Shown one piece after another: positions 29,308 to 30,245 of a stretch of 38,540 bases of DNA. How positions within the stretch are numbered: the first letter of the stretch is position 1; every line of letters starts with the position of its first letter. The DNA lies in IMG/VR virus record IMGVR_UViG_2541047933_000012; one strand, written 5' to 3'. The stretch comes from a virus (taxonomy: Duplodnaviria > Heunggongvirae > Uroviricota > Caudoviricetes). The notes beneath the pieces were generated by a model. That model was not told the origin of the DNA. It saw nothing but the letters and a program-made list of their open reading frames with translations, and made no database searches. The position numbers were made by a program, and so were the translations under genes.

Positions 29308-30245
29308 CCCCTGAATCCTGCCGGGATCTGGCTGTAGTCCACGTTGTCGTAACTGGCTTTGAAGTACGGGTCCTCGCGTTTTTCGGTGTACGTACTTACG
29401 GACGGCGATAAGCGCAGGGAAAGCTCATCCCATTTTTCCCGCAGCTTCGACGGGCTGAGCACGTTACGGCACCAGAACGGATCGCGGCTGACGCGGCTGT
29501 ACATCTCGCAGATTTGTTTGTGAGTACGACCATCCTGCACACACATCAGGCGAATTTCGTTTGCCCAGGCTGTCCAGTTCGGTTCTTTGGGACGAACCAC
29601 CTCGCCGTCACATTCGGCAGCCTGCTCGTACAGGGCGATGATTTTTTTCCAGAGCCACTGTGCGCAGGTCAAATCATCCTGCGTTCCCCACTGGCGCTTT
29701 TTAGGGCTGAATACAACAGCATCAGGATGGCGAGTTAAAAACTCCTGTTCAGCCGTCTGCGTGTCCGGTTGCGAAGCGTCCGGACGAGAAGTTTTTTTAT
29801 CTGACGGATCATGTTTTGATTTTACTGACGGATCCCCGCCAGATTCTGACGGGTGAAAACCCGCTTTTTTGCCAGATTTCGACGCATCAAATTTTGACGG
29901 GGCAGATTTTGATGCGTCAGATTTTGACGGGTCAGAATCTGACAGTTGAGAAAATGCCGCTGCCTGAAGCTTCGCAACGTTAAGCTGATAAACATTCGAC
30001 GCATTGCGGTTACCCTGGCGACGCGCCTTACGCGTTAACCAGCCTTCTGCTTCCAGCCGTGCGATAGCCGTTCTGACGGTACTCATCCCCGCGCCAATCT
30101 GGCGGGCAATGGTTTCAATTGATGGCCAGCACACACCTTCGTCATTACTGAAATCAGCCAGGCGGGCCATAATTGCCACGCTGGATAACTTCATGCCTGA
30201 CGCAGCGCAACCATCCCATACATAGCCGGTTAATTTAGTGCTCAT
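29304..30245 (-). CDS. Replication initiator (O-like) with internal iteron origin
   Basis: N-terminal winged-helix region; a Ser/Asp/Lys low-complexity linker is encoded exactly across the iteron array. Confidence 0.55.
   Translation of the reverse strand: MSTKLTGYVWDGCAASGMKLSSVAIMARLADFSNDEGVCWPSIETIARQIGAGMSTVRTAIARLEAEGWLTRKARRQGNRNASNVYQLNVAKLQAAAFSQLSDSDPSKSDASKSAPSKFDASKSGKKAGFHPSESGGDPSVKSKHDPSDKKTSRPDASQPDTQTAEQEFLTRHPDAVVFSPKKRQWGTQDDLTCAQWLWKKIIALYEQAAECDGEVVRPKEPNWTAWANEIRLMCVQDGRTHKQICEMYSRVSRDPFWCRNVLSPSKLREKWDELSLRLSPSVSTYTEKREDPYFKASYDNVDYSQIPAGFRG
29803..29948. repeat. Iteron array, putative replication origin
   Basis: About eight tandem ~15-bp units close to AGATTTTGACGGnTC inside the initiator gene. 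Confidence 0.6.

What the first reader, a model, noticed from the sequence alone, without database searches (positions are those of the whole stretch)
29803..29948. Iteron origin embedded in the initiator gene
About eight tandem ~15-bp repeats sit inside the O-like gene and encode a Ser/Asp/Lys linker, with A/T-rich runs (TTTTTTT at about 29792-29798, TTTTTT at about 29865-29870) in and just beside the array. This is the lambdoid ori architecture. No helicase-loader (P or DnaC-like) gene is apparent downstream, so the element may rely on host loading functions.
Basis: partly seen in the sequence, partly recalled or inferred. Interest (0 to 1): 0.4.

Follow-up and report, generated by a model that had tools for sequence, protein, structure and literature searches.

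The report
Phage replication origin inside initiator gene
The repeats are real and are very probably the replication origin of an SfII/SfIV-like lambdoid phage, lying inside its own initiator gene as in phage lambda; this phage has no helicase-loader gene, and its initiator ends in a peptide copied from the host restart protein DnaT, which may explain how it manages without one.

Summary
Observation confirmed. Window 29838-29945 holds six copies of a 13-bp palindrome (GTCA[A/G]A-N-TCTGAC), five at exact 15-bp spacing. Next comes a conserved 30%-GC block with two GATCCGTCAG repeats. All of it lies in the disordered linker of a 313-aa O-like initiator (29304-30245, minus strand).

Selection acts on the DNA, not the peptide. 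Across homologues, synonymous codons are kept in 81-93% of conserved residues in the repeat zone against 40-51% in the flanking domain. One iteron is read in another frame in two lineages. Copy number ranges from about 1 to about 10. Different N-terminal DNA-binding domains each carry their own iterons on a near-identical C-domain. The C-domain is homologous to the lambda O C-domain. So this is a lambda-type ori: a new member of a known kind, not experimentally shown.

No P, DnaC or DnaB homologue exists in the window or in about 90 related loci. This "O-only" class is described in the literature as not understood.

New lead: the initiator ends in ...SQIPAGFRG, the invariant C-terminus of E. 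coli DnaT. Family members with a lambda-O-type tail are all followed by a lambda P gene; those with the DnaT-type tail never are. I infer that the tail recruits host helicase-loading machinery.

The parts
29304..30245 (-). Initiator gene (313 aa, O-like): N-terminal winged-helix domain, disordered linker, lambda-O-like C-domain, DnaT-like tail.
   Evidence: ORF. Pfam HTH_36 at aa 23-70, E=4e-11. PHROG 391, E=6e-135. 98-99% nucleotide identity to the SfIV and SfII 'replication/primosomal/O family' genes.
29946..30245 (-). Coding region of the N-terminal winged-helix DNA-binding domain (aa 1-100), the presumed iteron reader.
29871..29945 (.). Five tandem 15-bp iteron units. The 13-bp palindromes lie at 29931-43, 29916-28, 29901-13, 29886-98 and 29871-83. 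In coding orientation each unit reads nnGTCA(A/G)AATCTGAC.
29838..29850 (.). Sixth iteron (GTCAGAATCTGGC), 33 bp from the fifth.
   Evidence: The DNA is kept while the reading frame differs in P0054 and phiP27.
29851..29870 (.). Spacer between iterons 5 and 6 containing an A/T run (TTTTTT at 29865-29870).
   Evidence: On the plus strand, 29850-29863 followed by its T run also scores as a terminator-like hairpin, but this is not conserved in Kp1LV.
29790..29835 (.). A/T-rich block with two GATCCGTCAG direct repeats (29825-29834 and 29801-29810, 24 bp apart) and the T7 run. Proposed unwinding and helicase-entry region.
   Evidence: GC 0.30, the lowest in the gene region. Repeat family D4. The block is conserved at the DNA level in iteron types A, B and C.
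29755..29789 (.). Conserved joint ...TCTCGTCCGGACGCTTCGCAACCGGAC... (encodes SRPDASQPD). This is the boundary at which N-domain/iteron cassettes are exchanged.
   Evidence: Present in all types, and at the junction in P0117 and L068, which have unrelated N-domains but 99% identical C-domains.
29406..29762 (-). C-terminal globular domain (aa 162-280), homologous to the lambda O C-domain, which is the P-binding domain in lambda.
29307..29351 (-). C-terminal tail YDNVDYSQIPAGFRG, matching the extreme C-terminus of E. coli DnaT.
   Evidence: 8 of 9 residues identical to DnaT 171-179. The homologue P0022 matches 14 of 20, E=9e-8. hhalign E=4e-4. These residues are invariant in DnaT.

Best explanation
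Window 29755-29945 is the replication origin of a lambdoid (SfII/SfIV-like) temperate phage, embedded in the linker-coding part of its own initiator gene.

Proposed mechanism:
1. After derepression, transcription from the cro-side promoter produces the initiator (inferred).
2. Dimers of its N-terminal winged-helix domain bind the six 13-bp palindromes, five of them packed at 15-bp spacing (inferred).
3. The resulting nucleoprotein array destabilises the adjacent 30%-GC block that carries the two GATCCGTCAG repeats (inferred).
4. The host DnaB helicase is loaded there (inferred).

The phage encodes no P, DnaC or DnaB. I propose that the initiator brings in the host loading machinery itself, through a C-terminal peptide (...DYSQIPAGFRG) that copies the invariant C-terminal tail of the host replication-restart adaptor DnaT. 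The partner would be DnaB-DnaC directly, or PriA/PriB.

Shown here: the sequence architecture; DNA-level selection on the repeats; modular co-inheritance of N-domain and iterons; homology of the C-domain to lambda O; absence of recognisable loader genes; the tail match to DnaT; and the mutual exclusion of the DnaT-type tail and the P gene.

Inferred: binding, unwinding, the partner of the tail, and origin function itself.
For: Architecture
- Six palindromic sites are confined to 106 bp; they are the only matches in 38.5 kb, with period 15/30.
- They sit in the interdomain linker, at the same relative place as the annotated gpO iterons of phage 434.
- They are followed by the lowest-GC stretch of the gene.
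- AF2 predicts aa 102-160 to be disordered (pLDDT below 50), so the peptide needs no particular sequence.

DNA-level selection
- Against Kp1LV, phiNP and YeP1, amino-acid identity is lower in aa 98-152 than in the N-domain (0.60-0.82 against 0.81-0.88).
- Nucleotide identity is nevertheless higher (0.79-0.90 against 0.70-0.79).
- Identical residues use the same codon in 81-93% of cases against 40-51%. Fisher p = 2e-6, 5e-7 and 1e-4.
- Ser codons are TCA or TCT in 13 of 14 cases in the zone, against 4 of 22 in the rest of the gene.
- The sixth iteron is unchanged in DNA but read in another frame (VLTRQNL) in P0054 and phiP27.

Specificity modules
- N-domain subtype B carries GTCAAnnnTTGAC and subtype C carries GTCCAGAWTCTGGAC, both at 15-bp period.
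- An unrelated N-domain (P0117) fused to a 99% identical C-domain carries six different 23-bp-spaced repeats. A third N-domain type does likewise.
- SfV and cdtI have their own 21-22-bp repeats.
- Copy number varies from about 1 to about 10 among close relatives, as in a repeat array. The 5+1 arrangement is modal: 54 of 59 type-A IMG/VR loci.

No loader
- Pfam and PHROG scans of all early ORFs find none.
- tblastn with P, DnaC and DnaB finds nothing in the window or in 80 related viral loci.
- The literature describes an O-only class, 34 of 314 lambdoid phages, as 'not yet understood' (PMC12315714).

Tail
- SQIPAGFRG against DnaT SQIPPGFRG, both at the extreme C-terminus. P0022 matches 14 of 20, E=9e-8. 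These residues are invariant in 21 DnaT orthologues.
- 87 distinct initiators with this tail have no P, DnaC or DnaB within 3 kb.
- The three family members with a lambda-O-type tail (TDWIYG... or HWNSPEAWENTL) are each followed at once by a PF06992 lambda P gene.
- SfV and cdtI share their C-domain with phiP27. They have the tail and no loader. phiP27 lacks the tail and has DnaC plus DnaB.
- In lambda the last five residues of O are essential, and the C-terminal region is the P-binding part (PMC6022878).
Against: - No experiment on this or any closely related phage shows binding, unwinding or origin activity. The SfII, SfIV and Eru papers do not mention an origin.
- Iterons and N-domain are adjacent, so their co-variation is also expected from linkage alone. 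The same caveat applies to the tail and the gene that follows it.
- The A/T-rich block is short (about 40 bp) and only moderately A/T-rich.
- The 15-bp spacing is unlike lambda's 20-24 bp, and it is not obvious how adjacent dimers would pack.
- Natural variants retaining one or two iterons exist (P0015-P0017), so either the array is dispensable or those prophages are defective.
- The function of DnaT's own tail is not defined in the papers I could read.
- YeP1-type initiators lack both the tail and any recognisable loader, so the tail cannot be the only P-less solution.
- Two early-left ORFs (33016-33696 and 35323-36213) have no family assignment and cannot be excluded as novel replication factors.
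Confidence: 0.8

Rival explanations
1. The repeats are only a slippage-prone, low-complexity protein linker (Ser/Asp/Lys-rich) with no role as DNA. The origin lies elsewhere, or replication is driven purely by recombination or transcription.
For: The segment is predicted to be disordered. Copy number drifts from about 1 to about 10 units among close relatives. Variants that have almost lost the array exist. The phage is Chi-rich, with 13 sites against 1.4 expected, as in phages that depend on RecBCD recombination.
Against: Synonymous sites are far more conserved here than in the folded domains, while the amino acids are less conserved. Each unit is a 13-bp palindrome. The DNA of iteron 6 is kept while its frame changes. 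Unrelated N-domains bring unrelated repeat sets to the same position. The arrangement mirrors annotated lambda/434 iterons.
Confidence: 0.07
2. The palindromes are operator sites through which the initiator, or another phage wHTH protein such as the PerC-like or LexA-DBD-like product, regulates transcription through the early-right operon. They would then not be an origin.
Against: The sites lie inside a coding region 300 nt from the start, with no promoter-like signal nearby. The PerC-like gene is absent in Kp1LV, L013 and L016 although the iterons persist. The protein's C-domain is a lambda O replication domain. Autoregulation and origin function are also not mutually exclusive.
Confidence: 0.05
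3. It is the origin, but helicase loading does not involve the DnaT-like tail. Either the lambda-O-like C-domain contacts DnaB or DnaC directly, or an unrecognised phage protein acts as the loader. On this view the tail is conserved only because the last 76 nt form a recombination joint shared among mosaic phages.
Against: The tail motif is conserved at the protein level in diverged forms (VDYSLPENSGFRS, VDYATPEGFRGY, RDVNQTASVDYAHPDGWRG), not only as identical DNA. It occurs on three unrelated C-domains. It is mutually exclusive with P, or with DnaC plus DnaB, in two independent C-domain families. The matching residues are invariant in DnaT.
Confidence: 0.3

Closest known systems
Phage lambda/434 ori-lambda with O protein (iterons plus A/T-rich region inside gene O)
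   Same: The origin lies within the initiator gene, between the DNA-binding domain and the C-domain. The sites are dyad-symmetric repeats followed downstream by an A/T-rich stretch. The C-domain is homologous: 30% identity over 216 aa, E=3e-26. The linker tolerates in-frame changes.
   Different: The N-domain is the HTH_36 type, not Pfam Phage_rep_O. There are six 13-bp sites at 15-bp spacing rather than four 18-bp sites at 20-24 bp. There is no P gene. The C-terminal tail is DnaT-like rather than the lambda TDWIYGVDL type.
P22 gene 18 / phage L gene 18 origins (iterons inside the initiator gene, paired with a DnaB-type helicase gp12)
   Same: Distinct iterons are identified by inspection inside a distant O homologue, and specificity varies with the initiator (PMC8022706).
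   Different: Those phages encode their own helicase. This one has neither a helicase nor a loader.
'O-only' lambdoid replication modules (phage LLS, mEp460_4F5; 34 of 314 lambdoid phages)
   Same: The same class: a lone O homologue with no helicase or loader, in a Chi-rich phage lacking a Rec module (PMC12315714). mEp460_4F5 shares this initiator's C-terminal half at 96% nucleotide identity.
   Different: That paper gives no origin and no mechanism ('not yet understood'). The iteron map and the DnaT-tail/P exclusion come from this analysis.
E. coli DnaT (primosomal protein I), the name under which several databases file this gene
   Same: The extreme C-terminal peptide matches (SQIP[A/P]GFRG; up to 14 of 20 residues in family members).

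Membership tests
Lambda-type ori/O module | Several dyad-symmetric initiator-binding repeats inside the initiator gene, between the N- and C-domain coding parts | tested here: met
   Six 13-bp palindromes in codons 101-135. The linker is disordered. The position is the same as the annotated 434 iterons.
Lambda-type ori/O module | A/T-rich unwinding region directly downstream of the iterons, in the gene's orientation | tested here: met
   GC 0.30 at 29790-29829, the minimum of the region. The block is conserved at the DNA level across iteron types. It is short and only moderately A/T-rich. Unwinding was not tested.
Lambda-type ori/O module | Initiator C-domain homologous to the lambda O C-domain | tested here: met
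   BLASTP to 434 O: E=3e-26, 30% identity over 216 aa. tblastn to lambda: 35% over aa 131-277.
Lambda-type ori/O module | N-terminal domain of the Phage_rep_O (PF04492) type | tested here: not met
   Pfam gives HTH_36, GntR-like and DnaD_N, with no Phage_rep_O hit at E<=0.01.
Lambda-type ori/O module | Partner helicase loader P encoded immediately downstream | tested here: not met
   No P, DnaC or DnaB by Pfam, PHROG or tblastn in the whole window. The gene after the initiator is PerC-like.
Lambda-type ori/O module | Initiator binds the repeats and the segment supports replication | not testable with these tools
   Needs EMSA or footprinting and an ori-plasmid assay.
DnaT / primosomal protein I (database annotation of this gene) | DnaT ssDNA-binding three-helix domain (PF17948) | tested here: not met
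   No Pfam family at E<=10 for aa 169-313, whereas E. coli DnaT scores 3.6e-21. No DnaT chain in PDB searches.
DnaT / primosomal protein I (database annotation of this gene) | Conserved C-terminal tail ...IPPGFRG | tested here: met
   8 of 9 residues identical at the extreme C-terminus. Family member P0022 matches 14 of 20, E=9e-8. hhalign E=4e-4, probability 35%.
P22-type initiator-helicase module | DnaB-family helicase gene next to the initiator | tested here: not met
   tblastn with the phiP27 DnaB-type helicase finds nothing in the window.
Plasmid iteron replicons (RepA/pi type) | Directly repeated 17-22-bp iterons in helical phase, plus DnaA boxes next to an A/T-rich region | tested here: not met
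   The units are palindromes at 15-bp spacing. The nearest DnaA-box-like sites (at most 1 mismatch) are about 650 bp or more from the repeats, at 30602 and 27331.

The most novel reading that the evidence does not exclude
A widespread class of lambdoid phages has dispensed with the P helicase loader by grafting the invariant C-terminal tail of the host restart adaptor DnaT onto otherwise unrelated origin-binding initiators. The iteron-bound initiator then plugs directly into the host DnaT-dependent helicase-loading route (PriA/PriB or DnaB-DnaC). If so, the tail type of an initiator (lambda-O-type or DnaT-type) predicts which loading route a phage uses. It would also assign a function to DnaT's still undefined flexible tail.
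Probability: 0.45. Interest if true: 0.75.

Novelty: new variant of a known kind. Interest (0 to 1): 0.5.

Why it matters
The origin itself is an expected lambda-style feature. Mapping it is useful for annotating SfII, SfIV and SfV, many E. coli and Shigella prophages, and related Stx phages whose HTH_36 'Eru' proteins have no assigned role.

The more valuable point concerns the 'O-only' modules. A 2025 survey found them in 34 of 314 lambdoid phages and called their replication 'not yet understood'. Here the initiators of that class carry a DnaT-like C-terminal peptide, and this peptide is mutually exclusive with a P gene (or with DnaC plus DnaB) in two independent C-domain families. That turns an open question into simple experiments: tail truncation, growth on dnaT, priA and priB hosts, and peptide pull-downs. 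It may also show what DnaT's own conserved tail binds.

Tried and rejected
- DnaA boxes: none within several hundred bp of the repeats, so I dropped a DnaA-assisted origin.
- GATC is not enriched in the window overall. Only the two GATC sites in the A/T block are notable, and a Dam or SeqA role is left as speculation.
- The CCGTCAG core is over-represented across the whole window, so it cannot be used as an origin-specific signal. I used the full 13-mer instead.
- The terminator-like hairpin at 29850-29863 on the plus strand is not conserved in Kp1LV, so I ignored it.
- The Eru papers on Stx phages mention HTH_36 proteins but not iterons or DnaT. The SfIV paper only names a 'replication module'.
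- The search for related loci with P0045 returned only E. coli window-type loci, so it did not enlarge the lambda-tail class.
- DnaT structural papers do not define the role of residues 154-179.

Full report
**What is there**

The flagged segment lies inside a minus-strand ORF, 29304-30245 (313 aa). The window is 98-99% identical over this gene to Shigella phages SfIV and SfII and to several E. coli phages. There the gene is called 'replication protein', 'O protein family protein', 'DNA replication protein O' or 'primosomal protein'.

The surrounding gene order is lambdoid: cI (31476-32150, plus strand), then on the minus strand cro, cII-like, a small unknown/DUF4222 gene, the initiator, PerC-like, Dam, LexA-DBD-like, RusA, KilA-N, DUF968/HNH and Q.

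**Checking the observation**

- TRF finds a period-15 array at 29873-29936 (4.3 copies), which fits period 30 slightly better.
- The repeat finder puts six copies in register at 29837, 29870, 29885, 29900, 29915 and 29930, plus two shorter CTGACGGATC copies at 29796 and 29820.
- Read in the gene's orientation, each unit is nnGTCA(A/G)AATCTGAC. This is a 13-bp palindrome (GTCAGA-N-TCTGAC) plus 2 bp, encoding (P/A)SKSD.
- A search for the 13-mer with at most 2 mismatches finds six sites in the entire 38.5-kb window, all between 29838 and 29943. About 3.2 matches, counted on both strands, are expected anywhere.
- The lag-15 self-similarity of this stretch is the maximum of the whole window: 53 of 75 positions, against a mean of 19.7 and SD of 4.1.
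- The 40 bp at 29790-29829 have GC 0.30, the lowest value across 29300-30300.

There are five strictly tandem units, one displaced unit and two half-units, and the units are palindromes.

**The protein**

- Pfam finds an HTH_36 winged helix at aa 23-70. PHROG 391 ('replication initiation O-like') covers the whole length.
- AlphaFold2, run with a 39-sequence alignment, gives a confident N-domain (aa 1-100) and C-domain (aa 162-280).
- Between them, aa 102-160 have pLDDT below 50. This is exactly the stretch encoded by the repeats and the A/T block.
- In phage 434 the annotated gpO iterons occupy O codons 117-145. Here the repeats occupy codons 101-135. The layout is the lambda layout.

**Is the DNA or the peptide under selection?**

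I compared the gene with Klebsiella phage 1 LV-2017, Citrobacter phiNP, Yersinia YeP1 and a Klebsiella-type prophage (P0054).

| Measure | Repeat/A-T zone (aa 98-152) | N-domain |
|---|---|---|
| Amino-acid identity | 0.60-0.82 | 0.81-0.88 |
| Nucleotide identity | 0.79-0.90 | 0.70-0.79 |
| Same codon at identical residues | 81-93% | 40-51% |

- The C-domain value for same-codon use is about 50% in the two full-length comparisons (Kp1LV and P0054). Fisher p = 2e-6, 5e-7 and 1e-4 for Kp1LV, phiNP and YeP1.
- Serine codons are TCA or TCT in 13 of 14 cases inside the zone, against 4 of 22 in the rest of the gene.
- In P0054 and in phiP27 the sixth iteron is intact as DNA but is read in another frame, as VLT(R/L)QNL instead of FDPSESG.

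These results are hard to explain by selection on a peptide. They are what a cis-acting DNA element predicts.

**Specificity modules**

- Within the same protein family, N-domain subtypes have their own repeats, always at 15-bp period and always dyad-symmetric. Type B carries GTCAAnnnTTGAC and type C carries GTCCAGAWTCTGGAC.
- In prophages whose early regions are otherwise the same as this window, an unrelated N-domain (P0117) is fused to a 99% identical C-domain. It brings six different repeats spaced 23 bp apart and its own A/T-rich 12-bp repeats.
- A third N-domain type does the same.
- SfV and cdtI, with yet another initiator, have 21-22-bp repeats in the same position: about 3 copies in SfV and about 8 in cdtI.
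- The exchange boundary is the conserved ...CCGGACGCTTCGCAACCGGAC... joint at 29755-29789.
- Copy number in type A varies from about 1 to about 10 among proteins more than 90% identical. The 5+1 form of this window is modal: 54 of 59 type-A loci in IMG/VR.

Because the iterons adjoin the N-domain coding part, linkage alone would also produce co-variation. The argument therefore rests on the combination with dyad symmetry, fixed position and synonymous-site conservation.

**The helicase-loader question**

- Pfam and PHROG scans of every sizeable early ORF find no P, DnaC, DnaB, primase or AAA+ protein.
- tblastn with lambda-type P proteins, E. coli and phiP27 DnaC, and the phiP27 DnaB-type helicase finds nothing in the window or in 80 related viral contigs.
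- The same is true of SfII, SfIV, SfV, cdtI, Stx2a_1447, Kp1LV, phiNP and several prophages.
- This window also fits that paper's Chi-rich class: 13 Chi sites against 1.4 expected.

**A candidate mechanism**

- The initiator's last nine residues, SQIPAGFRG, match the last nine of E. coli DnaT, SQIPPGFRG (8 of 9).
- A family member, P0022, matches DnaT over 14 of the last 20 residues, E=9e-8. Profile-profile comparison aligns aa 276-313 with DnaT 146-178, E=4e-4, probability 35%.
- These DnaT residues (I172, P173, G175, F176, R177, G178) are invariant in 21 orthologues.
- The rest of the protein is not DnaT-like, so the database name 'primosomal protein I' is wrong as a family assignment.

The tail is a mobile module. 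It sits on the lambda-O-like C-domain (this window), on the SfV/cdtI C-domain and on the phiNP C-domain. It also tracks the loading route:

- 87 distinct initiators with this tail have no P, DnaC or DnaB within 3 kb.
- The three family members that end in a lambda-O-type tail (..TDWIYG.. or ..HWNSPEAWENTL) are each followed directly by a PF06992 lambda P gene.
- phiP27 shares its C-domain with SfV but lacks the tail, and it is followed by DnaC plus DnaB.
- In lambda the C-terminal part of O is the P-binding part, and the last five residues are essential (PMC6022878).

I therefore propose that the DnaT-like tail replaces P by docking the origin-bound initiator onto the host's DnaT-dependent helicase-loading machinery.

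Caveats:
- The tail and the downstream gene are linked.
- The related loci are not independent samples.
- The role of DnaT's own flexible tail is undefined in the papers available.
- YeP1-type initiators have neither a tail nor a known loader.

**Verdict**

The origin is a new member of the lambda-type 'ori inside O' kind. Its variant features are tightly packed 15-bp palindromic iterons, an HTH_36 reader domain, no P gene and a DnaT-like tail.

- Origin function is very likely (about 0.8) but untested.
- The tail mechanism is a reasoned hypothesis (about 0.45) that addresses a question stated as open in the literature.

Noticed in passing
whole window (e.g. 2581, 7691, 12880, 18822, 19178, 23685, 25994, 26123, 27531, 28427, 28783, 30936, 37443): The Chi sequence GCTGGTGG occurs 13 times against 1.4 expected, and no Rec (exo/bet/erf) module was seen among the early-left genes. 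This fits the 'no Rec module / high Chi' class of lambdoid phages described in PMC12315714.
   Followed up: partly
window 30235-30593, minus strand: Two overlapping ORFs in different frames both hit phage families strongly: 30255-30593 (112 aa, phrog_1170; annotated in SfII and SfIV) and 30235-30414 (59 aa, DUF4222, phrog_1343). One annotation is probably an over-extension, or the two genes truly overlap.
   Followed up: no
window 28813-29307, minus strand: A 164-aa PerC/ANR-like protein with an N-terminal wHTH-like part sits where lambda P would be, and its start abuts the initiator's stop codon. It is absent from Kp1LV, L013 and L016, so it is not a fixed partner of the initiator. Its role in the phage is unknown.
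   Followed up: partly
window-wide; 22 sites: The heptamer CCGTCAG is over-represented across the whole window (22 against 3.9 expected), mostly outside the origin. No explanation was found.
   Followed up: no
window 29801-29810 and 29825-29834; Dam gene 28160-28846: The two repeats in the A/T-rich block each begin with GATC and are conserved in iteron types A, B and C. A Dam methylase gene lies just downstream of the initiator in SfII, Kp1LV, phiNP, YeP1 and others. A methylation or SeqA link to origin control is possible but was not tested, and GATC is not enriched overall.
   Followed up: partly
window 29901-29913: The third iteron of this window reads ATCAAAATCTGCC (protein ...SKSAPSK...), where SfII and SfIV have ...CTGAC (...SKSDPSK...). 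This is a single change in a conserved half-site position.
   Followed up: no
L016 (P0017), and P0015/P0016: Natural variants of the same initiator retain only one or two iterons. P0017 has a single hybrid of iterons 1 and 6 (CTGTCAGAATCTGGC). These resemble lambda ori-minus in-frame deletions and may mark replication-defective prophages.
   Followed up: partly
L005 (YeP1), L233, L234: A further group of initiators has the same N-domain and iterons but a different C-domain ending in ..W(N/A)xIWKEC(S/A)QR... It has neither a DnaT-like tail nor any recognisable loader downstream, which may be a third, unexplained P-less solution.
   Followed up: no
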